Assembly: GCA_014905635.1 (NCBI GenBank)
Contig: JABVCE010000008.1
Location: 248,001-312,000, forward strand
DNA length: 64,000 nucleotides
Source: Scenedesmus sp. PABB004
Lineage: Eukaryota
Direction: 5' to 3'
In this document: piece by piece, positions 1 through 61,221 of the stretch
How positions within the stretch are numbered: the stretch's first letter is position 1
Layout of the letters: each line of letters opens with the position of its first letter
Program-made: the position numbers and the translations under genes
Notes under the pieces: generated by a model
What the model was told of the DNA's origin: nothing
Databases searched by the model: none
Seen by the model: only the letters and a program-made list of their open reading frames with translations

Positions 1-3000
1 CGCGGCCTCGACCTCTGCCTCGGCGCCCGCACCGGCATTGAGGCGGTCGGCGAAGGCCGGTGAGATGGGACTGAGGCGGAGGTAGCCGCTGTACACCAGT
101 GGCGCAGCGCTCAGCGGTTCGGTGAGGGCCACCGACACGCGGAGCCGCTCCGTCGCGCCCGGCGCGAGCACGAGCGCGGCGACGTCGCGCGTGTCGGCGT
201 TGTTGCGGAAGCCCACGCGCGCCGCCGCGCGCAGCGTGGCCTCCTGGCCGTACCACGCGCCCGCGGTCGACACCGCGAGCGCGGGGTCGTGTCCGAGGCG
301 GTACGCCACGGGGCGGTCCCCCGTGTTGGTCAGCGACAGGCTCACGGTCGACGACCGGCCGGTCGGCAGCGGCAGGAACGCGGGCGCAACGGTCACGGGG
401 TTGTCGATGGCGGATCTCACTTGGATGAGCCCTGCGGGGCGCGGCGCAAAGGGGGCGCGTTGGGGAGGGGCGCGCGCGGCGCGAGGCCGCAGCGGCGCCG
501 CTGCGGCCGGCGAGAGCCGGTCAGAGAGCTAGCGGCCGCGCCGCGCGCCGCCGGGCCCGCCCCTCGGCCCCGCACCCGCGCCCGCCACCACGACGGGGTG
601 CATCCAGCGCTCGTCGCCCTTGACCGCCACGGGCGCGGCGGTGGAGATGAAGGAAGCCTTGGCCGCGTCGAGCACGGCGCGGCCGCCGGCCAGGCCCCCG
701 CGCCGCGCCTGCCGCCAGAGCGCGAGCGCGCCCGACGCGTACGGCGTGGCCCTGGCGGGCGCGCGGCGCGGGGCGCGCGGTGCGCGGCGCGCGGCGGTGA
801 CGCAGCCGCGGCGCCGTGCTCTGCGCGCCGCCGCGCCCCCCGCATGCTTGCCCGCCCTCCTCCTACGCGCGCGCGCGCGCGCGGCTGTCCCCCTGCTCAC
901 ATGCTGGTGCCCTGATAGAGCGCGAAGTTGCCGCCGGGGATGCTGGACAGGATGCCGCCGCCGGGCGCGGAGAAGGTGGGCAGCATCCTCAGGTCGGCGG
1001 TCGGGCCCCAGCTGCTGAACCACGACGGCGCGTCGGCGTTGGGGTTGCGGAAGCGCTTCGACGCGACGCGCGTCACGCGGATGCGCTCGCCGCGCTCGAG
1101 CGCGCGCGCGAGCGCGAGCCCCGTGTCCAGGTCGATGGCAAACTGGACGGCGCGGCGCGGCGGCGGCGTGCGCGTCGCTCGCCGGCCGGCGGCTGGTCGC
1201 ACGCGCGCCGCTCCCGCGCAGCCCGCTCCCGCGCGCCCGCCGCTCCCGCGCGCCGCGCCGCGGTGCGGTGCGCGCACCATCTGTGGCGCGGTGCGGCCGA
1301 CGCTCTCGTCGATGTTGAGCGCCTGCCTGAAGGCGGGAAAGGGCCGGTTGTCGTAGAACACCACGCCCACAGCGCCCGCGGCGAGCAGGAAGGACGCCTT
1401 GTCGCTCTCGCTGGGCGGTGGGCCGGGTGCGCGGGACGGGAGGGGGGGGGTGAGTGAGAGAGAGGGGCGCGCACCGGGCTGCGAGCGGCGGTGCCGCCCG
1501 CGCGCTGCGAGGCGCCGGCCGGCCAGCCCCTCGGCCAGGCCCCGGGCGGCCCCGCCGCCGCGCGCTCACGCGCAGTCGCCGCTCGGCACGAGCGCGATGC
1601 GCCCCGCCACCGACGCCGCCGACACCGGCGCGCACGCGCTGCGCGGGCTCGGCAGCGCGAGCGCGCTCGGCAGCGGCGGCAGGCGGTTGGCCATGAGGGC
1701 GCGCGCGGGGGCGTCGACCACGCTGGTGGCCTCGCCGCGCACGCGGATCGTCGAGTCGATGGTCAGCGCCGCGCCAAAGCTGAGGCTGTTGTCGGTCGAG
1801 CCCACGCTCACAGCGTCGGCCTCGGACGCGGGCGCACCGTACGACCAGAGCCCGTCGGCCCCCGAGTTGCCCGCGGCGGCGACGACGATCACGCCCTGCC
1901 TGCGGCGCGGCGGCGGCGGCGGAGCGCTCAGCGCGCCGCCCCCCGCGCCGGCTCTGGGGGGCGCTCTGCTGCCCGCACGCCCACGCCCACGCACCGCGCG
2001 AGGCGCGTCGTGAACTCGACGCCCAGCGGCGCGGCAAAGTTGGTGCCCATGCTGAGATTGATGATCTGCATGCGGTCACGCACCGCCGCCTCGAGCGCGC
2101 TCAGGAGCCACTCGTTGGTCGTCGTGCCTGGCCGCGGCGCGGCGCGGCGCGGCGACGCGGCGCGGTTCTTGAGTGGCCGCACAGCACGCAGCACGCGCAG
2201 CGCACAGCACGCGGCACGCGCAGCGCACGGCACGCGCCGCACCGTCGCAGGCAAACACGCGGTACGCGCCCAGCACGGCCTCCGGCGCGACGCCCTGCCA
2301 GGGCACGGGGCTGGCGCCGCCGCGCGCGTCTCCGGCGATGATGCCCGCCACGTGCGTGCCGTGCGACCCGCACACATCGTACTGCACGCAGCGCGGGGCG
2401 CCGGGCGGCGAATGAGGCCGGTCAGGCGCAGCGGGGCGCCGCAGCCCGTGCGCGCCGCCGCGAGCTCGCTCGAGCGGCGCAGCCCCGCCACACACGCACC
2501 GTGATCTGGTCGCCGTCGGTAAAGTCGCGCCCCGCGACGACGCGGCAGCGCCCGCCCGCGCCGATGCGGGCGCAGGCGCCAAACGCGGGGTGGGTGTAGT
2601 CGAGGCCGTCGTCGATGACCGCGACGCGCACGCCCGCGCCGCTGTAGCGCGCGTGCGCCGCGCCCACGAGCGTCGCCTCGTCCGCGCCGCCCCACACGCT
2701 CGGCTCAGCGGCGCTGCCGGCCGCGTCGGCGGCGGGGCCGGCCGCCGCGGCGCCGACGGCCTCGTCCAGGGTGCGGCCGCGCAGCTCGTCGAGCGGGGCG
2801 GAGAGCTTGAGCACCGGCCGCACCGCCCGGACCGCGGCGTCGCTCCGCAGCAGCTCCGCCAGGCGCGCGCCGTCCTCGGCGCTGCCCACGCCGACGGCGA
2901 GGCCCGTCATGACGTGGCCAAAGGCGCTCACGCGCGTCAGGGCGATGCCCGCGGCCGCCGCGGCGGCGCGGAGCTGCTCGCCCTTGGCCGCCGCGGCGCC

Positions 3001-6009: not shown

Positions 6010-13718
<7,709 letters not shown>

Positions 13719-13736
13719 ACGCCCGGTCCGGCGGCG

Positions 13737-15214
13737 CTACCGGCAGAGCTTGCGCGTGCTGGCCTGGGGGCGGCTCGTGACGCCCTGGCGGCCCTTGGTC
13801 GTCGGGCACGCCCTGCACGCGCCAAAGCTCGGGACGCCGCCGCTCGTGCGGATGGTCACGGCGCCGTCGTTGTAGCTGTTCCTGGCGCACACCTCGCAGC
13901 GCGTGGTGTTGGCGTTGTAGCCGTAGCCTGGAGAGAGGGGCCCGGCGGGGGTCGGCGGCAGCGGGCGGCGCGGGCGCGGGCGCGGGCGCCGCCGCCGCTC
14001 CCCCAGCCAGCCCCGCCGCGCCGCGCCACGCACCCGGCTGGCAGATGCACTCCTCGATGCGCGCCGCGCGCCGCGCGGTGATCATGTAGGGCTGCGGGCA
14101 CGCCACGCACGGCGTGAGCGCGCCGCCGGGCGAGTAGGTGCCCTTGCCGCAGACCTCGCAGCGCCGGCTGGTGCCGTTGAAGCCGCGCCCGGGCGCGCAG
14201 CCGCACACGACCGCGCCGTCGCCGGCCGTCGCCGCGCCGCTGGGGCAGGGCACGCAGCTCGGCAGGCCGCCGGGGTTGAAGCTCCCGGCGGGGCAGCGCT
14301 GGCACGACGCGCCGTCGGCCGGCACGCCCTGGCCGGCGGGGCAGGCTGCGCGCGCGGGGCAGGCACGGCGCGGCAGGCGGGGCGTGAGGCGCGAGGATGG
14401 TTGGGAGGTGGGGGGGGGGGGGCAGCGACCGCCGGCAGCGTCGCGCCCGCCTGCCAAGCAGCAAGGTGCCCGTGGTCAGCGCCGCCGTCTCCCCCGGGCT
14501 CGCGCGCCGCCGCCGCGCGCCGCACCCGGCTGGAGGCGGCGGGGCCGGTAGAAGCGGTTCCAGCACACGGCTGCAAAGCCCACAAACGTGTCGCCGCCCA
14601 TGGAGCACTCGGGCTTGACCGCCGAGAGCGGCCAGGGGTCGGCCGTCGCGGCGCTCACGCAGCGGTCGTCCGGCTGCCACGGGTCGCCGCACACGTGCTC
14701 GCCCGCGACGCTGCGCAGGAGCAGGCCCGTCACGCGGCGCAGCGTGGGCTCGTAGCACGCGCGCAGCCCGTACACCGCGTCGCCGCGCGGCAGCGTGAGG
14801 TTGACGACGAGCCGGTTGTTGCCGAGCCGCGGCCGGCACGCGACCGAGGTGCTGCCGTCCTCGAGCTCAAAGTCGAGCCGCGCGATCCAGGGCGTCTCGA
14901 AACCCGGGTCGCTGCTCTCTTGGAACACGCAGCGCACCATGGTGACCTTGGAGTCGCCGCAGGCGGCCTGCCCGTCGAGCGAATCGATCGCGTGCAGCGA
15001 CGCGGCCGCGCCTGGCGCTGCGGCGGCGCGCGGAGGCAGCGGAGGGCGCGCACACGGCGAGGAGCGGGAGCCGTGAGATTTGCAGCACCTGGCGCGGCGC
15101 GGCGCCCCCGCTCGCGCGCCGGCGGCGGCGGCGCGACCCCGCTCAGCAGCGGCGCGCACCTGGCGCCGCCGCCAGCGCCAGCAGCAGCAGCGCCGCCCAG
15201 GCGCCGCCCTTCAT
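13737..15214 (-). CDS. Secreted protein: putative jacalin-like N-terminal domain plus ephrin-receptor-like (GCC2/GCC3-type) Cys-rich repeats
   Basis: Signal exon MKGGAWAALLLLALAAAP; domain exon ending FVGFAAVCWNRFY; repeats CQRCPAGSFNPGG..CVPCPSG, CEVCGKGTYSPGG..CVACP, CEVCARNSY; TAG at 13737-13739. Confidence 0.75.
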
Positions 15215-18060: not shown

Positions 18061-24608
<6,548 letters not shown>

Positions 24609-24887
24609 CCCATTGGTGTGTGGAGCTGGGCTGTCGCGGCGGCGGCGCGTGCAAACGCAGGATGGCGTCCCTTGAACCCCCGCAGCGCGCAGCTCGCGGC
24701 GGGCGGCGCGTGGGGCGGCGCGCGGCGCGCGCCGCCCACACCGACGCGACGGGCTCGTGCAAGTGCAAGCCTCCTACTCTGCAGCGCCGCCCGCCGCGCG
24801 TTGTTGTGGTCACAGCTGCTCCAGCAGCAGCGACGCCGCCTCACCCCTGGCCCGCGCGAAGCCGCTTCCGGGCGCCGGCGCGCCCCC

Positions 24888-27800
24888 ATGGCGACGCCGC
24901 CATGGTGGAACTCCAGCATGCCTGACCGCGTGACGCGGCGGCAGGAGATGCACAGTGAGCCGGGGGATGCGCCGCGAACTCTGGGCGCCGTGAACTTTGT
25001 TCCCGCCCCGATCGGCGGCCCGGGAGGGCGCTCAAAAGTCGGACGAGCCGCTGGGCGTCTCGCCGCGGCACGCCGGTCGCCCTGGGCGCGCCGGGGCGCG
25101 GCGGCAGCTGCTGCTGCCGCGCCGGCGGCCGCGCACGCGCCGATCGGCTCGCGGCTGGCGTGGGGCCTGGAGCCGCAGAGCCGTGTGGGCGCCGGCTGGC
25201 GCGGAAGCAGCGGCGGCGCCGGCCGGTCGCGCGACCGCGGCGCGCAGCTCACGCCGGCGGCGTCCCCCACCGCGCGCCGCAGGCGTGGAGCGGTGGCAGA
25301 CGATGTACGTTCGCTACAAGTGCCAGCCCGAGGCGCAGGTCACGCAGGGCGGGTGGGACCTGGCGATGAGCCAGCGCTACGCGGGTGCGGCGGCGGCGCC
25401 CGCCCGCGCGCAGCAGCGCGCGGCAGCAGGGCGGCGCGCGCCGCCGGCCGACGCCCCGCCGCCGCGCCCACGCGCTGCTGTGCCCACCGCCGCGCCGGGC
25501 CATGCGCGCAGACCAGCTGGCGCTGGAGGAGCAGCAGCCCTACCTCAGCGAGGAGAGCCTGCTGTACAACGGCCTCGCGCCGACGAGCATCGCCCTGCGC
25601 ATCATCGAGGCGCCCGCCGAGTTTGCGGTGCCCGTCAAGCAGGACAGGCGCGCCGCGCGCCGCACGCCGCGCCGCGCCGCGCGGCGCGGCGCGGCGGGCC
25701 GCTGCTCTGCCGGCCGCCGCCCGACCCCGGCGACCGGCCGCTGACGCCGACGCCGCCGGCGCTGCCGCGGCGCGCGGACCGTTGGTGTGCGCCAGGCGGC
25801 TCACGCCCAACTTCCGTGTGCGCGTCGAGGTGGGGTTCCGCAACCGCTGCAGCTTCCCGCTCACGCTCAAGGCCTACGTCATCAGCCAGCAGGAGAAGGA
25901 CAGCGTGCCCGAGTGGGTGCCCGATGACTTCCTGGACCCTGACCTCCCGCAGGTGCGGCGCGGCGCGGCGCGGCGCGGCGCGCGGAGCGGGGCGCGCGGC
26001 GCGGGCGCGGGGCGGCGGTGGGCTGCGGCGCCTGCGGCTCTGCCGCGGCGCGCGACGCCGCCTGCGCCGCCGCCGCCGCCGCCGCCGCTGTCGGCGCGCA
26101 GCGCAAGCCGGTGACGGAGCTCAAGGGCACGATCGTCATCACCCACCACTTTGAGGGCACCGCGTCGGTGCGGCGCCCGCGCTGCGCGCGCCGGCGCGCT
26201 CGCCAGCGCGGCCGGCTTTGCCGTCACCGGCGGCGCGCGGCGATCAGCGAGCGGCGGCGCGCGCCCGCCCGCGCACGCGCAGGGCTCGCCGAAGGTCGGC
26301 GGGCGCAGCAAGCGCGGCGGCGGCGAGGCGGGGCAGCTGGCGCTGCTGGGCGACGGCGCGCAGGCGCTGCTGGCCAAGGGCGCCGACCCGGCGCTGCTGG
26401 CGAGCATGGGCCTGGGCGGCGAGCTGGACGCGCGGCTGGTGGAGCAGGTGCTGCAGGTGCGGCCGCGACGCCAACGCGACGACGACGGCGCCTGCCGCTG
26501 GCCCCGCTTGGCAGCGGCGCCGCGACGGCGGCGGGCGCGCGCAGCCGCGGCCGCCGCCGCCCACATCGCTCCCGCCCGCGTCGCAGGAGTCGGCGCGCAG
26601 CGGCGCGCCCGTCGACGCCGCGACCGCCGCCGCGCTCGCCGCGGCGGCGCAGCTCGGCGGCGCGCCCGGTGGCGGCGACGCGCTCGGCGGCGCGCCGGGC
26701 GTGGTCGCGCACGACTATGAGTTTGCCTCTGTCGAGCTGGTCAAGCCGACGCGCATGAACAAGGTTTACTTGGTCTTTGCCTGCTCAATACTCGAGCAGG
26801 ACCTCATGTTTGTGGTGTACAACATCCCCACCGTCGGCATCTGCCGCGCCGAGCAGCGCATCAAGGCCTGCGCCAAGCTGGGCGTCAACTACGCAGACAT
26901 CGGCGGCGCGAGCGACGCCGCGTTTGAGCAGGGCGGCGGGCCGGCGCCGCTCGGCCTGCCCGCGCCGCGGCCCGGCACGGCGGGGCGCAAGCGCGGCGGC
27001 AGCACGCCGGGCGGCTGGGCGGACGCGGGCGTGCTGCCCATCGACGCGCGGTGCGCCGCGCCGCGCGCGGGCGGCGCACTGCACGGGTGGCGCCGCGCTC
27101 GCGCGGCCGCGCGGCCGCGCGGCCGCGCGCCGACGCCGCCCCGCGCGCCCCGCCCCGCGCGCCGCCCCGCGCAGCGTGTACGGCGCCGACGGCCTCCTGG
27201 CCGGCGGCGGCGCCGCGGCCGAGGCTGGGCTCGCGGCGCTGGCGGCGGCGGGCGACCCTATGGGGCTGTCGCTCATGCAGGCGCGGCGCGGCGCACGCGG
27301 GCTGCCGCCCGGCTGCGCCGCCGCTGCTGCCGCCGCCGCCGCCGCCGCCGCTGCCGCCCGCCCGGCGACGGCCGCGCCCCGCACGCCGCGCGCCGCAGGT
27401 CGACGGCGCGCTGACGGGGCTGACGCCGGAGGCGCTCGCCGCCATGCCCGGCGCGGCGGCGCTCGGCGCGGGCGACGGCGAGGCGTGCTCCCGCGCGGCG
27501 CTGCGGGGGCTGCTGCTGCAGGAGTATGCGGCGACCGGGCTCACGCGCAAGCTCAGCCCGCTGGACATCCAGGCGCTCGAGAGCCACGCCGGCTTCCCGC
27601 CGCACGCGAGCGCGGGCGGCGCGACGATCACGCGCGGCCAGTGGGACGACTTTGTCGCCCAGTACCGCCGCGTGCTGCGCCTGCTGCGCCAGATCGCGAG
27701 CGTGAGCGCCGCGCCGCCGCGCAGCCGCGCCGCCGCGCCGCCGCGCCGCCGCGCCGGCGCCGGCGCCGCCGCCGCCGCGGCCGCCTCCTCCCCGCGCACC

Positions 27801-28234
27801 GCGCTGCGCCCGCCGCACCGCCGCGCGTCCCACGCGCCCTGCCGCGCGCGCAGGTGTGGAACCTGACCAGCCCCTGCGTCGTCGCCGGGTTTGACATGGA
27901 CCGCCTCGGCGCGATCGCGGCGCTCGCGAACGAGCCGGTCGGCACGTTTGTCGTGCGCTTCAGCGTGAGCTCCCCCGGGTCGCTCGTGCTCGCATGCCGC
28001 GTCGCCCCCGGGCACCCCAACGCCGACGCCGACGGCCTGCTGCACGCGATCATCCGCACCGAGGACCTCGCCGCGCGGCGCGTGGAGACGTGGATCCGCG
28101 ACTTTACCGGCGCGAGCCACCTGCTGGATGTGTACACCGCGCGCAGGCTCGACAAGCGAGCCCTCTTCCCCAGCCCCTACGCCCGCCTGCGCGCGATGGA
28201 CCCGCTCGAGGCCTACGACGACATCCTCGTCTGA
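24888..28234 (+). CDS. STAT-like protein: putative Ig-fold DNA-binding region, linker and SH2 domain
   Basis: Exon 1 MATPPWWNSS.. splices in phase to SVERWQTMYVRY. Central YEFASVELVKPTRMNKVYLVF; linker TRKLSPLDIQAL; SH2 VWN..VAGFDMDRLGAIAALANEPVGTFVVRFSVSSPGSLVLAC; tail PSPYARL..EAYDDILV*. Confidence 0.8.
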
Positions 28235-28513
28235 CGGGTTTGAACGCGGCATGCATGCAACGATTGCTGCGTGACGTGACGGGCGTGGAAACGCGGGGGC
28301 GGGGACGAGACCGAAGCGGCGCGGCGCGGCGCCGCGCCGCCCTGCGCTGCCGGGCGGCTGCTTGGATTGGTGGGCCGCCGGATTGCACTTGAGGGCGCAC
28401 TGTGCCTCGCCCGCGCGTCAAACTCACTGTGCGGTGGCGAGCGCACGGGGGTCGCCATCATCAAAGTCAATGGCCTCGCGCCTACCCGCTGTGTTGATGC
28501 TGTCTTATTTCAT

Positions 28514-28518
28514 TGTAA
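28514..28518 (+). terminator. TGTAA polyadenylation signal for the STAT-like gene
   Basis: TGTAA in an AT-rich patch 280 nt after the stop. Confidence 0.6.
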
Positions 28519-28559
28519 CCTCGCCTGGCGGCGGTGCCGCTGCAGCGCTGGCAGTGCCA

Positions 28560-29164
28560 GCTGCCAGCGGCCAGGGCGACGCCGCTGCGGCAGAGCGGCG
28601 GCAGTCGCGCGGGCGGCAGTCAGCCCGCGGCGTCACAGCGCGTCAGGACGCGCTCGCCGGGCCGCCGCCAGTCGCCGGACGGCTCACACCGCGCACGGCC
28701 AGCTCGTGGACACCGGCAGACAAGCTCGCCGTCGCACGCGCGCCCGCCGTGAACGCCGCCGCTGCCGCGAGAACCCGGCGGGAAGGAGCGGACTGCTCGC
28801 TGGAGCGCCTGGCGCGGAGTGACGCGGCAAACCAGCTCGTGCAGCTCGTCAGCTTGCAGCGCTGCGCCGAGCCGCGGCCGCGCCAGGGGGCGGCCCGCGC
28901 ATCCCGGGCCCGCCAGCGCGCCGCCCGGGGCCGGGGCGGGCCCCTGGAGCGCTGTCGGGACGCGCTGATGTACGGGCCGTCAGAATGAAGGGCGGCGCCT
29001 GGGCGGCGCTGCTGCTGCTGGCGCTGGCGGCGGCGCCAGGTGCGCGCCGCTGCTGAGCGGGGTCGCGCCGCCGCCGCCGGCGCGCGAGCGGGGGCGCCGC
29101 GCCGCGCCAGGTGCTGCAAATCTCACGGCTCCCGCTACGCGCCGTGTGCACGCCCTCCGCTGCC
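28560..29164. repeat. Partner of the inverted repeat at 15035-15637
   Basis: Reverse-complement match as described for 15035-15637. Confidence 0.95.
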
Positions 29165-31224
29165 GCCGCGCCGCGCCCCGCGGGCCCTGCGCAGTGCCTG
29201 GCGCGCTCGGCCAGTCGACCGCCACGTGCTCCCCGGGCATCACGCAGCTGGTGCGCTGCTACCTGGACGGCGCCGGGTACGTGGCGGAGCTGGAGTACTC
29301 GAACGGCGCGTCCGCGCCGCTGGCAGCCTGCCGCGCGACGCCCGAGCAGCTGACCGGCCTGGCGGCGCGCGAGCTCGTCGTCGCGGCGGGGGAGACGATC
29401 ACCAGCATCGCCACCTGCACCGCGCCCGGCGGCGTCGCCGGCGTCGAGCTGGGCACCAGCCTGGGCGCGACGCTGCGCTGCGGCGACACGGGTGGCAGCT
29501 GCCGCAAGCACTCGGGCGGCGGCGACCCGCTCGCTGGCTTCGACGCGCGCTGCGGCGAGGCGGGGATTCACACGCGGCTGCTCGCCGTCGCCAGCCCCTG
29601 CTGGAACCCAAACTACACGCCGCCGCGCTCCACAGGTGCGCTGCTGCCACGCGCGGCGCGCGGCGACGGCGCGGGCGGCGCGAGCGCGGCGCCGCGAGCG
29701 ACCCCCACGCGACCGCCCCGCTGCGCCCGCGCAGCCTGTGAGTCTGGCTACGGCACGCCCGGCGGCGGCGCGCCGTGTCGGCTGTGCCTGCCCGGCGAAT
29801 ACTCGCCCGGCGGCCTGCAGCCCTGCGCCACGTGCCCGCCCGGGACGACGACGCTGGCGCCGGGCCGCGCCGCCTGCGGTGAGGCGGCGGCGGCGCCACG
29901 GGGGGCGTTGAGCAGGCGCGCCTGGCCGCCGTCCGTGCTCACGTCCCTCGCTCACCCACCGCGCGCAGTGTGCATCCCGGGGTATGGCCGTGCCGGTGCC
30001 GGCAGCGAGGCCAGCTCTGGCGGGACGTGCAAGCGCTGCGCCGCCGGCTTCTACGCGCGGGGCGGCTCCCTGGCCGCGTGCACCGCCTGCCCCGACGGCT
30101 ACACCAGCGCGCCGGGCGCGCCGTCGCAGCAGTTCTGCGTGTGCAAGCCAGGTGGGCGGGCGCGCGCTCACGTGGCCGCCGCGCGCGATCGCGTGGCCGC
30201 CGCGCGTGCTCACCCGGCCGCCGCGCGCCCCCATGCCCGCCGCCAGGCACCGGCACGGCGGGCAGCAAGTGCGCGACCTGCGCGCGCGGCAGCTACGGCC
30301 CCGGCCCCGACGCGGCGCCGCCGGGCGTGGGCAGTTCGGAAGACAACTCCACCGCGTCGTACGCCTACGCCGGCGCGGACGTGCTGCAGGCCGCCATCTT
30401 TGCGACCGCCGGCGTGCCCGTGAGCGCGCGCGCGTGCACGCCCTGCGGCACCAACCGCACGACCGCCGAGGCGGGCGCCAGCAGCAACATGGCGTGCGGT
30501 GAGCTCCCCGGCTCGCGCATGTGGCGCGCGGCCGCCGCAGCCCTGGGCGTTCGCGCGCGGCTCACCGCCCGCCTCGGCCGCGCGCGCGCGCGTGCGCGGC
30601 AGTGTCCGAGGTCGTGTCCTGCAACGCCGCGGCCAACCTGGTCCCCCTCAACGGCCAGTGCGTGTGCAAGGCGGGCACGCGCCCTACGACCTCGGGCGGG
30701 CCCTGCGCGCTGTGCGGCGCGGGGGCGGCCAAGCCCGCCGCCGGCAACGGCACCTGCACCGCGTGCGCCGACGGCGAGGCCCCCAACGCGAATCGCACGG
30801 CGTGTGTGAGTGGCCGGCGCGCGCGGTCGCGCGCAGCTGCCCGGCGGCCGGCCGCGCCGCCTCGCCGTGCGCGCGCGCGGGCCGCGCGGGCGGCGCCCAC
30901 GCCGCGCCGCCTCACGCCGCCGCGCTGCAGGTGTCGACGGTCGTGAGCAATGCCTGCGTGACGTGCAACACCGCGACGATTGTGTCCACCATCAAGGAGT
31001 TTTGCCAGGGCGGCGCGAGCGACGTGGCGATCGTCGACAGCAGCTGCACGGCGTCGAGCGGCACACCCGTGCTCGACTATGTCGGCGTGCCCGACGCGGT
31101 CGTGCTGGACAGCACGGGCCAGCTCAACTGCACCGCCGTCACGGCGCGGTCGACGTTTGGGCTCGAGGTGCGCGACCCGGTGTGCGACGCGGCGCTCGTG
31201 TTTGACGTCACCGGGTACAAGTGA
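28985..31224 (+). CDS. Secreted protein: putative jacalin-like domain plus ephrin-receptor-like Cys-rich repeats; paralog of 13737-15214
   Basis: Identical signal exon MKGGAWAALLLLALAAAP; domain with LVVAAGETITSI..VAGVELGTSLG..LAGFDARCG..CWNPNY; repeats CRLCLPGEYSPGG..CATCPPG, CKRCAAGFYARGG..CTACPDG; ends FDVTGYK*. Confidence 0.8.
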
Positions 31225-31683: not shown

Positions 31684-33375
31684 ATGGCCGCCCTCCCCGC
31701 CGCCGCCGCGGCGGGCCTGGCGGCGGGCTGGGCGCTGCGATGCGCGGCCGGCGGGCTGCTGGAGCCCCTGGTTTCCAGGTGCGCTGCGGCGGCGGCGGCG
31801 CGCCACAGCCTGCGGGGCGCGCCGCTGCCGCGCGGCGCTGCCGCCCGCGCCGCGCCGGCCAACGCGCCGCCGCCGCCCCTTGCCCGCAGCGTCGGCTGGC
31901 TGGGCGGCGCGGCGCTGCTGCTGGCCGGCTGCGGCGCCGCGGTCTGGGCGCTGCTGCGCGCGGACGCCGACGCGGGCCTGCTCCTGCGCGGCACCCACGC
32001 GCCCGACGCATTCCGCGGCAAAGTGGTCTGGATCACCGGCGCCAGCCAGGTGTGCGCGCGGCGCGGCGCCGCAGCGCCCGTCGCCGGGACGCCGGCCGGC
32101 GGTGGCGCCCAGCACAGCGTGCGACGCGCGCCGCCGCCGCTGCCGCCGCGCAGGGCCTCGGCGAGGTCCTGGCGCGGTACTTTGCCGCGCACGGCGCGCG
32201 CCTCATCCTCTCGTCGCGCAGCGCGGAGCGGCTGGAGGCGCGGCGCGCGCGGCGCGCCGCCCGCGCCCGCGCCGCGGCGCCGCGCCCGCCCACCAGGCCG
32301 CCCGCCCGCCCGCCCGCCGCGCAGCGCGTCAAGTCGGGCTGCGCGGCCGACGCCGGCGACGTGCTGGTGCTGCCCTTTGACCTGCTGGACGCGCCGCCGG
32401 CGCTCGCGGCGGCCGCCGCCGCGGCGGACGCCGCGTTTGGCGGCGCCGGCGTCGACTACCTGCTGCACGTCGCGGGTGCGCTGCCGCGACGCGGGTACAA
32501 GCGCCCTCTCACTGGGCTCCGACCACGGCGGGCTCACGCGCGCCCGCGCGCGCGTGCCGCCGCTGCTGCCGCCGCGCCGCAGGCGCGTCGCAGCACGCGC
32601 TCGCGGCGGAGACGACCGCGGCGGCGGCCGACGCGGTGCTGGCGATCAACACGACGGCGCCCATCCGGCTCACGCAGGCGGCGCTGCCGCACATGCTGCG
32701 GCGGGGCCGGGGGCAGCTCGTGGTCGTCGCGAGCATGGCCGCAAAGGTGCCGTCGGCGGGGCAGGCGGCGTACGCCGGCGCCAAGGCGGCGCTGCTGGGC
32801 TATTTCGGGTCGCTCGCGACCGAGGTCGCCGACCAGTGAGCGCGGCGGACCCCCGCGCGGCGCGGTCCCCTTGCCGTCGCAGCGCGCCGCCCACGCGCCG
32901 CCGCCGCGCTGCGCGCCGCAGGGGCGTGGGCGTGACGGTCGTCTGCCCGGGGCCCGTCGCGGCGGCGAGCCCCGGCTGCACGCGTGTCGTGTACGGCCCG
33001 ACGGGGCCGATCACGCGGCCAGAGGAGCCGGACAAGCGCCGCATGCCGCCCGCCCGCGCGGCGGCGCTCATCGCGACAGCCGCCGCCGCGCGCGTGCCGG
33101 AGGCCTGGCTCGCGCGCCAGCCCGTGCTCGCCATGGGTGCGCGCGGGGCCGCGCCGCGCAGCGCCGGCCGCGCCTGCGCGCAGCAGCCGCCGCCGCGCCG
33201 GGCCCACGCCGCCGCCCGCGCCGCGCCCGCGCCACGCCCTGCAGCCTACATCATGCAGTACGCGCCGGCGCTGGGCTGGCGCGTGCTCAAAAAGGTCGGC
33301 CCCGCGCGCGCCCGCGCGCTCGCCGCCGGCCGCAACGGCTACGACGTGGGCGGCCTGCTCAAGGGCGAGAGCTGA
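31684..33375 (+). CDS. Short-chain dehydrogenase/reductase, DHRS7-like, membrane anchored
   Basis: N-terminal hydrophobic anchor; FRGKVVWITGASQGLGE; VVVASMAAK; catalytic YAGAK; VTVVCPGPV. Confidence 0.9.
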   Translation: MAALPAAAAAGLAAGWALRCAAGGLLEPLVSRCAAAAAARHSLRGAPLPRGAAARAAPANAPPPPLARSVGWLGGAALLLAGCGAAVWALLRADADAGLLLRGTHAPDAFRGKVVWITGASQVCARRGAAAPVAGTPAGGGAQHSVRRAPPPLPPRRASARSWRGTLPRTARASSSRRAARSGWRRGARGAPPAPAPRRRARPPGRPPARPPRSASSRAARPTPATCWCCPLTCWTRRRRSRRPPPRRTPRLAAPASTTCCTSRVRCRDAGTSALSLGSDHGGLTRARARVPPLLPPRRRRVAARARGGDDRGGGRRGAGDQHDGAHPAHAGGAAAHAAAGPGAARGRREHGRKGAVGGAGGVRRRQGGAAGLFRVARDRGRRPVSAADPRAARSPCRRSAPPTRRRRAARRRGVGVTVVCPGPVAAASPGCTRVVYGPTGPITRPEEPDKRRMPPARAAALIATAAAARVPEAWLARQPVLAMGARGAAPRSAGRACAQQPPPRRAHAAARAAPAPRPAAYIMQYAPALGWRVLKKVGPARARALAAGRNGYDVGGLLKGES

Positions 33376-54076: not shown

Positions 54077-57000
54077 TCACTGTATCCCGCCCAGCGCCTC
54101 CGGCGGCAGGCCTGCGGGCACCGCGCCGCCGCCGCCGCCGGCGCCGCCCGAGAGCACGCCCGCGTTTGTGATCACGCCGCCCCCGGGCAGGCCCAGCCCC
54201 GTCGTCGTGCGGCCGCCGCCGGCGCCCGGGATCATCGCGGGCACCGCGCCGCCGGCGCCGGGGCCCTTTGTGAGGCCGCCCAGCACGGCGCCGAGGCCGG
54301 AGAGCACGCTGCGCGCGCTGACCGACGGCGCGACGGCGCTGCCGCCAGACGGCGGCGGCAGGCCGCCGAGTGCGGCCGTCACGCTCGAGGGCCAGCCTGC
54401 GGCCGACACCACCGACTCCTTGGGGTTGGAGATCGCGGTCGTGGGCACGCCAAAGTAGCTCGCCTGCGCCGCGGCCTTGGCCTGGTTGGCGAGCCACGTG
54501 TTCTGCCCGACCGGCACGCCCACGCCGCCCTTGATCGACGGCGCGACGCTGCTGTACGCGCTCACGCTGCTCGTGCGGAACAGCCCCGGCGCGGGCGGGC
54601 CGCCGTCGGACGGCGGCAGGCTCGCGGTCCAGAAGCTCGGCGGCGGCGGCGTCGGCGCGCAGCCGGGCGGGCCGTAGTGGATGATGGTGCCGTCGAGCGT
54701 CTTGACGTCCTTGCACAGCGGCTCGCCAAACTGCTTGTCGACGCACGCGTTGCCGTTGGCGTCGCGGCCGTTGACGCACCCCGCCTTGGCGTTGACCGGC
54801 AGCGTCACGGTCTTGGCGACGAGGCCGTCGTCCTCCACGCTCGACACGTCGATCATGTACACCGCGCCCGTCTGGTTGTCCATGTTGCTGTCCCACGCCG
54901 TCGGCGCGCCAACCGCGAGCAGCTTGCCGTTGGCCGAGAGCGACACGCCCGCGCCGTAGTTGGAGAACGGGTCGGCGTGCGTGTGCTTCTCCGCGGGGCG
55001 CCAGGGGCAGCTGCCGTCCTTGGGGCCCTGCGCGCGCGCGCGGCAGCGGCGGCGGCGGGGGTCAACCACGCGGGCGCACGCCGCGCTGCGCCCGCCGAGC
55101 CGTGCCGGGCAGCAGCAGCGCTGCTGTTTGAGCTCACGTCCAGGTAGTAGAGGAAGACTGCCATCTGCTCGGGCGCGCCCGCCAGGTCGCCGACGTACGC
55201 GCCGATCGCGAGCTTGACCATCACCGGCCCCGCCTCGACGATGCTCATGCTCGCCGCGCCTGCGCGGCGGCGGCGCCAGCGGCGCGGCGGCGCGCGCTCG
55301 GCGGGGGCTGGTGCGGCGCGTGCTGCGCGGCGCGGCGCGTGCCGTGCGGCGCGCGCGCCGCGCCGCGCACTCATGCGGTAGTTGTAGCCCGGCGGCGCCG
55401 CGATCTGGCAGCGGCGCAGCCAGGTCGTGGTCATGCCGGCGCCCTGCGCCTCGTACACGACCAGGCGGCCCGCCTCGACGCGCATCAGGAACTTGCCGCT
55501 CTGCGTGATCGCGAGCCCGTTGTCCACGTTGACGCCCTGCGCCGTCGCGGCGGGCCAGGGATCGGACCAGGCCTCGCCGTTGGCGATGGAGCTCACGATG
55601 CGGAAGCGGTCGGTCGCCGGGTCGCGCTTGTACAGGTAGGTGTACTTGGCCAGCTGGTTGGCGTATGACGCGGTCGACACCGCGATCGTCTGCGCGTCGC
55701 TCGTGACTGCGCTCGACGCGCCAAAGTGCACCGAGATGCCTGCCGCGGCGCGGCGGCGCGCGTTGGCGCGTCGGCGGCGCGCGCGCGCGCCGCGCGCGCC
55801 TGGCCCGCGCGCGCCTGGCCCGCGCGCTGGCCCGCCGCCGCCGACGCCGCGCTGGGCCGCCGCGTTGCTCCGCGCACCTGCTGGCATGTTGAGCAGCGCC
55901 AGGTCCTGGATGAAGCTGTAGCGCCAGGCCTTGGGGTCCCAGTAAAACACCTGCGCCCCGCGCGCCCCGCGGGCGCGGCGGTGAGGGCGCCGCGGCCGGC
56001 GGCGGCGCCGCCACCCCAGCCGCGCCGGCGCCGCCGCCGCCGGCGCAGCGTGCCGCCCGGGCCCGGCCCGGCCCGCGCCGCGCGCGCGCCTGCGCGCTGC
56101 CGCGCTTGTCCGGGTAGCCCTCGCCGACGCTGAACGACACGAGGATGACGCAGCCGTCGCCGCTCACGCTCACGGCCATGGCGGCGGCCATCGCGGCGCG
56201 CACCTCAACGGCGAGCGACTGCAGGTACTTGAACCCCTCGCCCGCGACCGCCTTGTACACGTGCACGACGGGGCGGTTGCCCGCGGCGGTCGTGTTGACG
56301 ATGCAGAGCCGCGGCGTCGTGCAGTTGGGCCGCCCGCGCACCGCCTCGACGCCGTCCATGACCGCCATGGTCGTGCCGTCCTCGCTGAGCGCGACCTGGG
56401 CGCCAAAGTAGCGGTAGCTGTCGCGCGGCTGCCACAGCGGGCGGGCGCGGTACTCGCACGTCTTCGCGTTGAGCGACGTCAGCAGCAGCGCGCCGCCGGG
56501 CGACGTCACGTTGGGCGAGTTGAGCGGCGCGCCCGCCGCGACCAGGCTCGCGTCGGCGTTTGACGCGAGGCTCAGCCCAAACATGGAGCCCTGCTCGGTG
56601 AAGTAGTTGGGCACGTACGTGCCGAGCTTGCCGCACAGCGCGGGCGCCTCCTGCTTCAGCCGCCGCGCGCCGCCGCCGCCGCCGCCGCGCGCCGGGAGCC
56701 GCGCTGCCGGCGGCGCGGCGTACTCGAGGCCCTGCTCCGTCACCTCCTGGCGGTAGGCGCCGTGGTGCCCGAGCAGCGGCGGCGGCGCCGGCGGCGCCGG
56801 CACGGCGGGCAGCTGCTGCTCCTGCTGTGCGCGGGCATGGCGCCCCGGCTGCCCGCCAGGGCCGCCGGCAGGGATGGCGAGGCTCCTGCCGCTGATGGTG
56901 CTGCTGGCGCCATGCGCCGGCCTGCGGGCGCGGCGCGCGGCGCGGCGCGGTCGGCGAGGCGGCACGGCAGCAGCGCCCCGCTGCCGGCGCCCAGCGGGGC

Positions 57001-57214
57001 CGACGGCGCGGCGCTGCAGGGAGCGCGGTGGCGTCATGAATGCCCCATCAGAGCCCTGGGCGTGAGCATCGCCTGCGCGGGGCCGCGGGCGCGGCGCCAG
57101 GCCGCTCGCGCCATTCGCTGCGGAGCAGCCCCGCCAGCCCCACCTGCAGGCGCCCGCGGCGACCAGGGCCAGCACGAGCGCAATCAGTCGTGGGTGGGGG
57201 AGCTTCAGGCGCAT
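54077..57214 (-). CDS. Secreted FG-GAP (integrin-alpha-type beta-propeller) repeat protein with Gly/Pro-rich tail
   Basis: Signal MRLKLPHPRLIALVLALVAAG; repeats MFGLSLASNADASLVAAGAP, YFGAQVALSEDGTTMAV, AVSVSGDGCVILVS, HFGASSAVTSDAQTIAVS, NYGAGVSLSANGKLLAVGAP..GAVY. Confidence 0.8.
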   Translation of the reverse strand: MRLKLPHPRLIALVLALVAAGACRWGWRGCSAANGASGLAPRPRPRAGDAHAQGSDGAFMTPPRSLQRRAVGPAGRRQRGAAAVPPRRPRRAARRARRPAHGASSTISGRSLAIPAGGPGGQPGRHARAQQEQQLPAVPAPPAPPPLLGHHGAYRQEVTEQGLEYAAPPAARLPARGGGGGGARRLKQEAPALCGKLGTYVPNYFTEQGSMFGLSLASNADASLVAAGAPLNSPNVTSPGGALLLTSLNAKTCEYRARPLWQPRDSYRYFGAQVALSEDGTTMAVMDGVEAVRGRPNCTTPRLCIVNTTAAGNRPVVHVYKAVAGEGFKYLQSLAVEVRAAMAAAMAVSVSGDGCVILVSFSVGEGYPDKRGSAQARARRGPGRARAARCAGGGGAGAAGVAAPPPAAAPSPPRPRGARGAGVLLGPQGLALQLHPGPGAAQHASRCAEQRGGPARRRRRRASARARRARARRARRARAPPTRQRAPPRRGRHLGALWRVERSHERRADDRGVDRVIRQPAGQVHLPVQARPGDRPLPHRELHRQRRGLVRSLARRDGAGRQRGQRARDHAERQVPDARRGGPPGRVRGAGRRHDHDLAAPLPDRGAAGLQLPHECAARRARRTARAAPRSTRRTSPRRARAAAPLAPPPRRRGEHEHRRGGAGDGQARDRRVRRRPGGRARADGSLPLLPGRELKQQRCCCPARLGGRSAACARVVDPRRRRCRARAQGPKDGSCPWRPAEKHTHADPFSNYGAGVSLSANGKLLAVGAPTAWDSNMDNQTGAVYMIDVSSVEDDGLVAKTVTLPVNAKAGCVNGRDANGNACVDKQFGEPLCKDVKTLDGTIIHYGPPGCAPTPPPPSFWTASLPPSDGGPPAPGLFRTSSVSAYSSVAPSIKGGVGVPVGQNTWLANQAKAAAQASYFGVPTTAISNPKESVVSAAGWPSSVTAALGGLPPPSGGSAVAPSVSARSVLSGLGAVLGGLTKGPGAGGAVPAMIPGAGGGRTTTGLGLPGGGVITNAGVLSGGAGGGGGAVPAGLPPEALGGIQ

Positions 57215-57935
57215 GGGCACCCACTCCTCATCACGCGCACGGGCGGGCCAGTACGAGTTGGCGCCTCCCTCGCGCGGCTCGCTGGCGCGGGTCGGGGACG
57301 CTTGTTGGTCGTGAGGGATTGCGAGACGCTGCGTGGAGAGGCGTGGAAGGCAGAGGAGCGGCAGCTGACCGGGCCGGCGGCGGGCGGCGAGCCCTGGCGA
57401 GTGTGCGGCAGGGCCGGCGGCAGGGCCGGCGGCGTGCGCCCGAGCCTGGCCGCGTGTGTGCGTGGCGGAGGGCGCCTGACGGGAGCTGCTCCCGCGCATG
57501 CGGGCTGCCTCCCACGGCTGGCGGCGCGCGGCTGGCTGCCAGCGGCCCGGCGATCGCCGGGCCGCGCTCGCGAGCGCGCCTTGGTGTGTGTGCGCGGCCG
57601 GCGCCGAGGCCCAGCCTGCTGCTGCTGATGCGCCTGATGCTGCTCCTGCTGCTGGTGCCGCCCCGGCGCCTGCCGCCGCCGCGGCGGGGCGCGCCCGGCC
57701 GCCGCGCTCGGGCCGGGCCGCGGCGCTCAACCGCTCGCCGGCGCGGCCGGCATGGCGGTGCCGCGCGCGCCCGACCGGGCCGCACACGCCTCGCCTGCGC
57801 CAGCCCGCCCGCTGCGGTTCGCGCCTCGCTGCCGGGGGCTCCTCAACGGCCCGGCCCGCCCTCGCCTGGCGCTCGCGGACAGCGTCGCCGGCCCTCCATG
57901 CCCTAACCGTCAGCACAGCAGCCAGCACAGCGTGC

Positions 57936-60900: not shown

Positions 60901-61221
60901 CTGCTGGGCGTGACGACGATGAGCCTGCTGACGACGCCGTTTGTCATCCTCGCCGCGGTGCGCCTGCTCATCCGCGAGGGCCACCACACGCTGTACATCT
61001 CGGGGCCGCGCCTGCGGCTGAGCTCGGTCGCGGGCGACGCCGGCGCGCGCGCCGGCAGCGGCGCGGACTGGGCGGTCGTCATGCTCGACGGCCAGGCGCT
61101 GCTCGGCACCGCGGCGACCGCGTTCACGCGCGCGGGCGGGCGCGACATCCGGCAGAGCCACGCCGCGGGCGGCGAGCGCGCGAAGCGGCAGCCGCGCCCG
61201 CCGCCGCCCGGCGGCGCGTGA
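57936..61221 (+). CDS. K+/H+ antiporter of the CPA2 family, KEA4/5/6-like
   Basis: Signal peptide; SIAEAFDKALAKEF; IDSHDNEFVLS..LDPLLIQDL; QPVINGYLVAGAIVGPGGL; AQLGVQLLLFQLG; LSMSSTSVVVK; GTLILQDCSVG; GLSEELGAFIAG; AHVGEFSLVL. Confidence 0.92.

What the first reader, a model, noticed from the sequence alone, without database searches (positions are those of the whole stretch)
24888..28234. STAT-like transcription factor with intact SH2 pocket and C-terminal tyrosines in a green alga
Seen: a STAT-type linker-SH2 (R.LS..D+..L; W....+.GF..R..A...L..EP.GTFVVRFS...PG) with the invariant betaB5 Arg, followed by PSPYARL and EAYDDILV. It is preceded by a beta-rich region with F..+.+...TRM..V.L.F, recalling amoebozoan STAT/CudA DNA-binding domains. 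Established: SH2 domains are rare in Viridiplantae, which lack JAKs, and STATs dimerise via a Tyr just after the SH2 domain. Inference: a phosphotyrosine-controlled STAT-like switch in a chlorophyte with an unknown kinase.
Basis: partly seen in the sequence, partly recalled or inferred. Interest (0 to 1): 0.7.

Follow-up and report, generated by a model that had tools for sequence, protein, structure and literature searches.

The report
Green-algal STAT-like SH2 transcription factor
A ten-exon gene of a very GC-rich green alga encodes a protein built like the core of STAT transcription factors (DNA-binding beta-sandwich, helical linker, phosphotyrosine-reader SH2 domain); the family is widespread in green algae, but its tail tyrosine is not conserved, so a STAT-style phosphotyrosine switch remains unproven.

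Summary
Window 24888-28234 (+) is a 10-exon, 651-aa gene, and every quoted motif is present. It is one of a large green-algal family: 579 database hits, and 30 of 30 named clusters are chlorophytes.

Against the full reading:
- The first tail Tyr (Y634) sits at the structured edge of the SH2 module.
- The second (Y646) occurs in only about 5 of about 30 relatives, replaced by Met or Phe in near kin.
- No STAT coiled-coil domain is present, and Pfam STAT_bind does not match.
- No kinase lies in the window.

Verdict: a new member of the known STAT-like kind. The pTyr switch is unproven.

The parts
24888..28234 (+). Whole coding gene, ATG to stop: 10 exons, 651 aa. Exons: 24888-24954, 25283-25384, 25512-25647, 25796-25952, 26102-26167, 26283-26456, 26587-27050, 27175-27280, 27399-27701, 27854-28234.
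   Evidence: Collinear tblastn with ortholog P0014. Splice model with no internal stop, 7 GT-AG and 2 GC-AG introns. GC3 periodicity in all 10 exons.
24888..25564 (+). N-terminal conserved block (aa 1-74; exons 1-2 and the start of exon 3), with motifs WW..(P)..RR..M(H/P).VERWQ..YVRYK. In the ortholog model it packs with the DNA-binding sandwich. It is not a STAT N-domain or coiled coil.
   Evidence: Conserved in 11 orthologs. pLDDT above 90 for residues 1-60 of the P0014 model. The MYRF match spans model residues 11-288.
25565..26167 (+). First half of the DNA-binding-type beta-sandwich (aa 75-176; exons 3-5, introns included in the range), with motifs APAEFAVPVKQDRRLTPNF and ELKG..VITHHFE.
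   Evidence: Invariant columns. Strands E81-88, 107-115, 118-131 and 166-174 in the ortholog model. Beta-type hydrophobic periodicity 1.38 against 0.78 for alpha.
26283..26688 (+). Low-complexity insertion that splits the sandwich (aa 177-268; exon 6 and the start of exon 7; intron 6 lies within the range).
   Evidence: The insert is 74-396 aa long in the 9 clade-A rows measured. pLDDT is below 60 in the ortholog model. Coding periodicity is kept.
26689..26922 (+). Second half of the sandwich plus two helices (aa 269-346; within exon 7), with motifs HDYEF, KPTRMNKVYLVF and IPTVGICRAEQRIKA.
   Evidence: 21 homologs at E 3e-34 to 1e-17. Strands and helices at pLDDT above 95 in the ortholog model (P0014 240-314).
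26986..26994 (+). R368-K-R basic patch in the disordered spacer: a candidate nuclear localisation signal (inference only).
   Evidence: A single RKR-type patch sits at this place in 8 of the 9 clade-A rows where all anchors were found.
27489..27701 (+). Helical STAT-type linker (aa 455-525; second part of exon 9), including 'RKLSPLDIQAL' and the long last helix that ends at the junction Trp (W527).
27854..28177 (+). SH2 domain (aa 526-633). Pocket residues: R542 (27902-27904), R560 (27956-27958), S562 (27962-27964), H589 (28043-28045).
   Evidence: Pfam SH2 E 5.8e-4, 20.3 bits against a cut-off of 21. Alignment to Crk SH2 shows all four pocket residues. Model of this exon has pLDDT 83. Best fold matches are STAT SH2 domains.
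28178..28180 (+). Y634, the first tail Tyr ('PSPYARL'), at the C-terminal edge of the structured SH2 module.
   Evidence: Kept in 29 of 30 clade-A tails and 35 of 71 family rows. The equivalent Y709 ends helix 701-710 in the ortholog model.
28214..28216 (+). Y646, the second tail Tyr, in the C-terminal acidic-hydrophobic motif EAYDDILV. It is the only candidate for a STAT-like activating tyrosine.
   Evidence: Found only in the window, P0001, P0002 and P0046, and shifted by one residue in P0035. It is Met in P0014 and Phe in P0038. pLDDT is about 50. The last aligned pair with STAT6-DNA 5d39_A is model 121 (= Y646) against residue 641.
28514..28518 (+). TGTAA, a candidate chlorophyte-type poly(A) signal 280 nt after the stop.
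   Evidence: It is the only TGTAA in 28235-29500. UGUAA is named as the main Chlamydomonas signal in the abstract of PMC4025486, seen in the search listing.

Best explanation
The gene encodes a chlorophyte STAT-core protein. An Ig-like beta-sandwich of the DNA-binding kind, split by a disordered insertion, is followed by a disordered spacer with a basic patch, a helical STAT-type linker, and a STAT-type SH2 domain with a complete phosphotyrosine pocket.

It most likely acts as a sequence-specific transcription factor. Its SH2 domain would read a phosphorylated ligand on a partner or on another subunit, and so control its assembly, location or activity.

Shown here: the gene model, the family, the domain order, the fold matches and the conserved pocket. 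Inferred: DNA binding, nuclear import, a phospho-ligand, and regulation by phosphorylation. The conserved part of the mechanism cannot be the tail tyrosine, because it is not conserved.
For: - Gene model and orthology.
- Family size and range: 579 hits at E<=1e-3 with an 11-sequence profile. All 30 clusters looked up by name are chlorophytes or unnamed. Named ones include Raphidocelis, Ostreobium, Chlamydomonas, Volvox, Haematococcus, Dunaliella, Ulva, Bryopsis, Tetraselmis, Myrmecia, Micractinium and Botryococcus.
- Ortholog model: 374 of 743 residues at pLDDT>=90, covering all conserved blocks.
- Foldseek against PDB: 24 matches at E<=1e-3, and all 19 listed rows are STAT chains. Some alignments are about 650 columns long.
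- Family profile against PDB sequences: STATa E 2.3e-10, STAT5B 7.9e-8 and STAT6 5.5e-6 all start 70-90 columns upstream of the SH2 core. Every non-STAT hit shown starts at the core.
- Pocket residues: Arg alphaA2 in 63 of 71 rows and His betaD4 in 66 of 71. Arg betaB5 is in 69 of 71, but the rows were chosen by a pattern that nearly requires it.
- Language-model look-alikes of the sandwich of a clade-B member: STAT_bind at 0.87, with 186 and 179 shared features. This is a lead only.
Against: - Pfam STAT_bind and STAT_linker match none of the 55 family members even at E<=10. STATa_Ig matches 1 of 55 at E 0.41, which is not significant.
- HMMER profiles put no stretch on any STAT DNA-binding domain.
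- The full-length model is of an ortholog about 60% identical, not of the window's own protein.
- There is no STAT N-domain or four-helix coiled coil. The STAT1 alignment begins at its residue 316, and only about 75 residues precede the sandwich.
- No protein kinase, tyrosine phosphatase or second SH2 was found in 334 of the window's 358 long ORFs scanned. The other 24 lie in the gene itself.
- The review PMC8331091 (passage read) holds that plant STAT-like proteins may lack pTyr-dependent function.
Confidence: 0.68

Rival explanations
1. Canonical STAT switch in this lineage. An algal tyrosine or dual-specificity kinase phosphorylates Y646, two subunits bind each other's pY646 through their SH2 domains, and the dimer enters the nucleus and binds DNA.
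For: - The pocket is intact.
- Y646 lies in a flexible tail with pLDDT about 50.
- In the VIA alignments, the last aligned pairs put exon residue 121 (= Y646) opposite STAT6 residue 641 (5d39_A). They put it within two residues of STAT5a 694 (7tvb, 123 against 696) and of STAT1 701 (8yyu_A, 120 against 702). That these residues are the activating tyrosines is established knowledge that I recall, not a call result.
- The motif AY[DA]D[IV][LY][VI]-COOH is shared by 4 sequences.
- Putative tyrosine kinases are reported in Chlamydomonas (PMC4342544, passage read).
Against: - Only the window, P0001, P0002 and P0046 have this Tyr. P0035 has it one residue off.
- The closest named ortholog has Met and P0038 has Phe at the same place. 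Most clade-A tails have no Tyr after the SH2 module: 23 of 30.
- The range ends come from a low-confidence part of the model, and a range gives only the first and last aligned pair.
- The residues after Y646 (DDILV) do not resemble STAT sites.
- No kinase lies nearby.
Confidence: 0.15
2. A constitutive or otherwise regulated transcription factor. The SH2 domain docks on a phosphorylated partner other than its own tail, or serves mainly as a structural or dimer interface.
For: - Tyr, Met and Phe alternate at one position within a conserved L-[DE]-x-(Y/M/F)-[DE]-x-[ILM]-[LV] pattern.
- Paralogs exist with the sandwich but no SH2: 4 of 4 have no Pfam SH2 at E<=1. One has Trp in place of Arg betaB5 (P0118). 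The DNA-binding part can therefore work without a phospho-reader.
- The review PMC8331091 (passage read) doubts pTyr dependence in plant relatives.
Against: The pocket residues are kept over the deep split between clades A and B, which argues for a ligand that needs them.
Confidence: 0.3
3. Not a transcription factor. The beta-sandwich is a lipid- or protein-binding module, and the protein is a cytoplasmic SH2 adaptor.
For: - The GM2-activator beta-cup appears among the Foldseek matches (E 4e-3 to 2e-2, probability 0.6-0.87).
- No DNA-binding family matches by sequence.
- The Atlas's own low-confidence model gave only generic beta-sandwich matches with TM below 0.4.
Against: - 9 of 9 sandwich-only rows in the VIA top 50 are DNA-binding domains.
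- A conserved basic patch fits a nuclear signal.
Confidence: 0.05

Closest known systems
Metazoan and Dictyostelium STATs (solved: STAT6 4y5u/5d39, STAT5a 7tva/1y1u, STAT1 1yvl, Dd-STATa 1uur/1uus)
   Same: The order is the same: Ig-like DNA-binding sandwich, helical linker, SH2. The SH2 is STAT-type, with helices directly after strand betaD and extra C-terminal elements. A junction Trp precedes the SH2. The phosphotyrosine pocket is intact.
   Different: - There is no N-domain and no four-helix coiled coil.
- The sandwich is split by a 74-396 aa disordered insertion.
- Pfam STAT_bind and STAT_linker do not match.
- The activating tail Tyr is not a family feature.
- Sequence identity is only about 20-27% in linker-SH2.
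Land-plant STAT-like proteins (STATL; Arabidopsis SH2 domain protein A, At1g17040, and B, At1g78540; the 'STAT' family of PlantTFDB)
   Same: By published description they are SH2 proteins of Viridiplantae with a STAT-type linker-SH2. Their upstream DNA-binding domain and Tyr sites are poorly conserved relative to animal STATs (PMC8331091 and PMC3670131, passages read). The name of At1g17040 was seen in PMC3981707.
   Different: Surveys with plant-derived models report STAT as absent from Chlorophyta (PMC5154493, passage). A 2026 study places its origin inside streptophytes (PMC12866927, table passage). The chlorophyte family therefore lies outside the current catalogue.
Dictyostelium and Entamoeba CudA-type transcription factors
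   Same: CudA is a nuclear DNA-binding protein with 'distantly related proteins in plants' (PMC3188802, passage read). I recall, but did not see, that Yamada et al. 2008 (Development 135:3093) linked the CudA core to the region upstream of the SH2 domain in the plant proteins. Green algae also have sandwich-only paralogs with a CudA-like layout.
   Different: No CudA sequence could be compared. The only hint is a sub-threshold look-alike, Pfam DG1062_N, at 0.87. CudA lacks an SH2 domain.
Cbl tyrosine-kinase-binding domain (EF-hand plus SH2)

Membership tests
STAT family (metazoan/Dictyostelium) | Ig-like DNA-binding domain directly N-terminal of the linker, in the same order | tested here: met
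STAT family (metazoan/Dictyostelium) | Sequence match to Pfam STAT_bind (PF02864) or STAT_linker (PF21354) | tested here: not met
   0 of 55 family members match at E<=10. None of the window's exons match.
STAT family (metazoan/Dictyostelium) | Helical linker continuous with the SH2 domain (linker-SH2 unit) | tested here: met
STAT family (metazoan/Dictyostelium) | STAT-type SH2 topology (helices after betaD in place of strands betaE and betaF) | tested here: met
STAT family (metazoan/Dictyostelium) | Conserved activating Tyr shortly after the SH2 domain | tested here: not met
   As a family feature it is absent: a Tyr beyond Y634 occurs in 7 of 30 clade-A tails, and only 4-5 of these are alignable with Y646. 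Met or Phe occupies the place in near kin. For the window itself the position fits STAT spacing, so the local case stays open.
STAT family (metazoan/Dictyostelium) | N-terminal domain and four-helix coiled-coil domain | tested here: not met
   Only about 75 residues precede the sandwich, and they are modelled as part of it. The STAT alignments begin at the DNA-binding domain.
STAT family (metazoan/Dictyostelium) | Tyrosine phosphorylation, SH2-mediated dimerisation, DNA binding | not testable with these tools
No RNA run or proteome data were reachable.
SH2 domain (Pfam PF00017) | Match to the family model, and the pocket residues Arg alphaA2, Arg betaB5, Ser betaB7 and His betaD4 | tested here: met
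   The window exon scores 20.3 bits, just under the cut-off of 21. 41 of 55 relatives match, best E 2.3e-8. The family profile finds SHP2 SH2 at E 2e-10. The four residues are seen in the Crk alignment and conserved. The fold is confirmed.
Plant STATL / PlantTFDB 'STAT' family | Sequence homology to Arabidopsis At1g17040 and At1g78540 | not tested
   No land-plant sequence appeared among the 30 clusters named.
CudA-type DNA-binding domain | Homology of the sandwich to the 120-aa CudA/ECudA core | not tested
   No CudA sequence was reachable. There is only a sub-threshold look-alike to Pfam DG1062_N (0.87), and its relation to CudA is not established here.
Ig-like (p53/Rel/Runt/STAT class) DNA-binding domains | Beta-sandwich fold shared with solved members | tested here: inconclusive

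The most novel reading that the evidence does not exclude
Green algae keep a working STAT-type phosphotyrosine pathway that needs no JAK. In the window's lineage a C-terminal Tyr (Y646), at the same distance from the SH2 domain as the activating Tyr of STAT6, STAT5a and STAT1, would be phosphorylated by an algal kinase and drive reciprocal SH2-pTyr dimerisation. That would place the STAT core (sandwich, linker, SH2) and its logic before the divergence of plants and animals. It would also move the origin of the plant 'STAT' transcription-factor family from streptophytes back to the base of Viridiplantae.
Probability: 0.15. Interest if true: 0.8.

Novelty: new member of a known kind. Interest (0 to 1): 0.42.

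Why it matters
SH2-based phosphotyrosine signalling is usually treated as an invention of animals and amoebae, and plant STAT-like proteins as a curiosity of doubtful function.

This work shows a large chlorophyte family in two deep clades, plus paralogs that have lost or degraded the SH2 domain. Its modelled structure matches the STAT core from the DNA-binding domain through the SH2 domain, and its phosphotyrosine pocket is conserved.

Surveys based on land-plant models report the STAT family as absent from Chlorophyta, or as arising within streptophytes (PMC5154493 and PMC12866927, passages read). If the chlorophyte family proves homologous to the plant proteins, that origin moves back.

It also gives tractable algae (Chlamydomonas, Raphidocelis, Ulva) in which to ask what a plant-lineage SH2 domain reads.

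Tried and rejected
- Whole genome: none is held for this window, so kinases, phosphatases and paralogs elsewhere in the genome could not be sought.
- RNA evidence: no RNA holder was listed for 24800-28400.
- Complex prediction (homodimer of the SH2 exon) was not available.
- Word-based homolog searches reached only chlorophytes.
- The metagenome scan gave one weak locus, L001 (47% over 30 aa), which was not used.
- Single-exon searches of solved structures: the linker exon and the exon-7 sandwich half gave nothing significant. The top hit of the SH2 exon, a designed repeat protein (5cwi), rests on the short 'HPNAD' stretch and is spurious. A TATA-binding-protein hit is a polyQ artefact.
- Pfam on 55 family members: no STAT_bind and no STAT_linker.
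- Kinase next door: none was found in 334 of 358 long ORFs.
- Earlier findings of the scan: nothing on this genome or on this sequence.
- Papers not held: Yamada 2008 and Liu & Nash 2012. It may already list green-algal STAT-like proteins.
- PMC11865428, PMC5804921, PMC12470777, PMC4788957, PMC12247862 and PMC10172295 held nothing relevant.
- PMC8607625 calls GRAS proteins the plant STAT relatives. I did not follow this.
- A Crk-based reading of the C-terminal half of the SH2 domain as Src-type (E 0.055) was dropped in favour of the STAT-type reading, after the models and fold searches.
Full report
**1. The observation.** The window is about 79% G+C throughout and carries spliced genes.

Guided by a collinear tblastn with the Raphidocelis protein P0014, I built a gene model of 10 exons from ATG 24888 to stop 28232-28234. 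It gives 651 aa with no internal stop. The introns are 115-328 nt long: seven GT-AG and two GC-AG.

All ten exons show strong coding periodicity (GC3 0.91-1.00 against GC2 0.37-0.60), and the introns do not. The introns are largely G+C microsatellites. The junction of exons 3 and 4 (a GC donor) reproduces the invariant 'KQDRRL' of the orthologs. The 3' end of exon 8 (the other GC donor) is the least certain boundary, and it lies in an unconserved stretch. The model aligns end to end with a 645-aa relative (E 1e-160).

**2. The family.** The exon-10 peptide and the conserved core of exon 7 find relatives at E 3e-54 and 3e-34. Full-length relatives of 645-1000 aa share these parts:
- an N-terminal block;
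- a first conserved beta-rich block;
- a variable low-complexity insertion;
- a second conserved block ('KPTRMNK', 'GICRAEQR');
- a disordered spacer;
- a linker;
- an SH2 domain.

A profile of 11 of them, run over 1.84 billion representative proteins, found 579 proteins at E<=1e-3, 329 at E<=1e-10 and 96 at E<=1e-30. Only the best 150 were listed.

I looked up 30 clusters by name. Every one that carries a name is a chlorophyte, annotated as 'hypothetical' or 'SH2 domain-containing protein'. No land plant or amoebozoan was seen among them, which says little, since 429 hits were not listed.

Trees split the family into two clades (FastTree, 39 rows; IQ-TREE LG+G4, 21 rows chosen from the 39 to be near full length). 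Clade A holds the window, which is sister to Raphidocelis at 100/99. Clade B is separated at 100/98, and Tetraselmis striata has members in both. The two clades are homologous along the whole length (hhalign E 6e-54, 454 columns).

There are also paralogs with the N-terminal block and the sandwich but no SH2 domain. Three are numbered consecutively in Ulva mutabilis and one is in Haematococcus. All 4 lack a Pfam SH2 match at E<=1. Other paralogs have a degraded pocket, for example Trp at betaB5 in P0118.

**3. Linker and SH2 by sequence.** Pfam SH2 matches the window's exon 10 at 20.3 bits, just below the cut-off of 21. It matches 41 of 55 relatives, best E 2.3e-8.

The alignment to the Crk SH2 domain shows Arg alphaA2 (R542), Arg betaB5 (R560), Ser betaB7 (S562) and His betaD4 (H589). 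Among 71 distinct family rows, Arg alphaA2 is kept in 63 and His betaD4 in 66. Arg betaB5 is kept in 69, but the rows were picked by a pattern that nearly requires it, so that count is biased.

Against all solved chains, the 55-sequence family profile finds these:
- SHP2 SH2 at E 2e-10, over the SH2 core only (columns 390-445);
- Dictyostelium STATa at E 2.3e-10, over columns 316-443;
- STAT5B at 7.9e-8 and STAT5A at 2.7e-7;
- STAT6 at 5.5e-6, over columns 301-481.

Only STAT chains extend 70-90 columns upstream into the linker. The clade-B profile and the clade-A profile (STATa E 0.0014) behave the same way. No stretch falls on a STAT DNA-binding domain. Pfam STAT_bind and STAT_linker match none of the 55 members at E<=10.

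**4. Structure.** The spliced protein could not be handed to the fold tool, so I folded the closest named ortholog, P0014. It is about 60% identical to the window's protein in the conserved parts and was folded with a 55-sequence alignment. Mean pLDDT is 72.9, and 374 residues are at 90 or above: all conserved blocks are confident and all low-complexity parts are not.

The region 81-284 is a seven-strand beta-sandwich, with its strands on either side of the insertion, followed by two helices. The linker has three to four helices. In the SH2 domain, helices follow strand betaD directly.

Foldseek against the PDB gave 24 matches at E<=1e-3. All 19 listed rows are STAT chains. They are of two kinds: about 200 columns at rmsd 3-4 A (linker-SH2), and about 650 columns spanning the whole core.

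VIA-align against 48,161 representative chains gave:

By recall, STAT1's DNA-binding domain begins at about residue 317, so that alignment starts where the domain starts. The rmsd of the two long alignments is 15-17 A, so domain orientation differs or is not well predicted. The equivalence is one of order and fold.

Independent, weaker support comes from two sources. Hydrophobic periodicity on a 14-sequence alignment is beta-type in the first sandwich half (1.38 against 0.78) and alpha-type in the linker helices. Language-model look-alikes of a clade-B sandwich are led by STAT_bind at 0.87, with 186 and 179 shared features and 7 of 10 hits in one clan. This is a lead only. For the clade-A sandwich the leads were DG1062_N at 0.87, LAG1-DNAbind at 0.84 and STAT_bind at 0.79.

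**5. The window's own SH2 exon.** Folded with 35 sequences, it reaches pLDDT 83.2 and pTM 0.74, and its tail (residues 105-126) falls to about 50. Foldseek gave 15 matches at E<=1e-3. All 13 listed rows are STAT chains aligned over 86-118 columns (TM by query 0.50-0.68). Nearly all classical SH2 domains align over only 54-67 columns (TM 0.33-0.43).

**6. The tail tyrosines.** Among 30 clade-A C-termini (the window included), Y634 in 'S-x-Y-x-R-L' is present in 29. The exception looks like a mis-called gene. Across both clades it is Tyr in 35 of 71 rows. In the ortholog model its equivalent ends helix 701-710. It therefore belongs to the folded module.

A later Tyr occurs in 7 of the 30 tails. 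Alignable with Y646 are only the window, P0001, P0002 and P0046 (from the separate 35-row alignment). All four end in AY[DA]D[IV][LY][VI]. P0035 has the Tyr one residue off. Raphidocelis has Met and P0038 has Phe at that place.

On the other hand, the VIA ranges end at exon residue 121 (= Y646) against STAT6 residue 641. They come within two residues of STAT5a 694 and STAT1 701, and those are the activating tyrosines by established knowledge (recalled). The spacing is thus STAT-like. But it comes from a low-confidence part of the model, and from range ends only.

**7. Surroundings.** I scanned 334 of the window's 358 stop-to-stop ORFs of at least 120 aa against Pfam. The other 24 lie in the gene itself. 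No protein kinase, tyrosine phosphatase or second SH2 was found. No whole genome is held.

**8. What is known.** These statements come from passages I read:
- Plants have STAT-like (STATL) proteins besides SPT6L. Their DNA-binding domain and Tyr sites are poorly conserved. [quoted passage not shown]
- A distant relative of the STAT linker-SH2 occurs in Arabidopsis (PMC3670131).
- CudA is a DNA-binding nuclear protein with distant relatives in plants (PMC3188802).
- Putative tyrosine kinases exist in Chlamydomonas, and the SH2 domain is pan-eukaryotic (PMC4342544).
- The plant STAT DNA-binding model comes from PlantTFDB or PlnTFDB (PMC4827209).
- A 2026 study places its emergence at 'Phragmoplastophyta + Klebsormidiophyceae' (PMC12866927).

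I did not see Gao et al. 2004, Williams & Zvelebil 2004 or Yamada et al. 2008. What I say of them is recalled or taken from the citing passages. My searches for a description of the chlorophyte family found none. Liu et al. 2011 could not be read and may list such proteins.

**9. Verdict.** The gene is a chlorophyte member of the STAT-like kind: a STAT core without N-domain and coiled coil, with a split sandwich and an intact phospho-reader pocket. A transcription-factor role with a phospho-ligand-reading SH2 domain is the best-supported mechanism (0.68). A canonical reciprocal pTyr switch through Y646 is possible in this lineage but weakly supported (0.15).

Noticed in passing
related proteins P0077, P0093, P0096 (Ulva mutabilis UM101_0012/0011/0010), P0036 (UM101_0025), P0112 (Haematococcus): Green algae also have paralogs with the N-terminal block and the DNA-binding-type sandwich but no linker-SH2, a CudA-like layout. 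Three of them carry consecutive gene numbers on one Ulva scaffold, which also holds an SH2-bearing member.
   Followed up: partly
related proteins P0054, P0055, P0059, P0067, P0070, P0072, P0073, P0079, P0131 (clade B); P0118, P0101, P0141: A second ancient clade has different motifs (KSSRMNKRW, LPTIVLSR..DQ.DKA, GTFLVR.CSEPG) and a tail of 200-550 aa after the SH2 domain. Some divergent members have a degraded pocket: Trp at betaB5 in P0118. Tetraselmis striata has members of both clades.
   Followed up: partly
window 28969-30420 (+) and 13675-14475 (-): Two ORFs carry cysteine-rich Ephrin_rec_like / TNFR-like repeats (Pfam E 1.4e-5 and 4.3e-10). One begins about 735 nt downstream of the STAT-like gene. 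No kinase domain was found with either.
   Followed up: partly
window about 8500-13300 (-): A pyruvate:ferredoxin oxidoreductase gene (POR_N E 2.6e-49, PFOR_II, POR, Fer4). It is an anaerobic-metabolism enzyme known from some green algae.
   Followed up: no
window about 21000-23300 (+), perhaps to 24600: The upstream neighbour is an AAA ATPase gene (AAA, AAA_lid_3). By eye its last exon resembles an FtsH C-terminus, but no Peptidase_M41 domain was found.
   Followed up: partly
window 23104-23227 and 23471-23613: A (CT)62 microsatellite and C-rich repeats (CCCTCTC, CCCA) lie within or just after the AAA gene. Read in frame they give the long 'SLSLSL' run.
   Followed up: no
window 25648-25795 and 27281-27398: Two of the gene's nine introns use GC-AG boundaries. 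Most introns are made of G+C-rich short tandem repeats.
   Followed up: partly
window 63765-63860 (-): ARAGORN calls a 96-nt tRNA-Ser(GCT). Rfam finds no tRNA there at the gathering score or at E<=1, so it is probably a false call in G+C-rich DNA.
   Followed up: yes
window 54080-60943 (-): An open frame of 2288 codons has no Pfam match and runs antisense to a Na+/H+ exchanger gene (58433-61931, +). It is most likely an artefact of 79% G+C, where stop codons are rare in all frames.
   Followed up: no
window about 61990-62230 (+), 32576-32836 (+), about 2250-2380 (-): Other recognisable genes: ribosomal protein L31e (E 9e-39), a short-chain dehydrogenase (E 9e-19) and a subtilase fragment (E 2.7e-6).
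   Followed up: no
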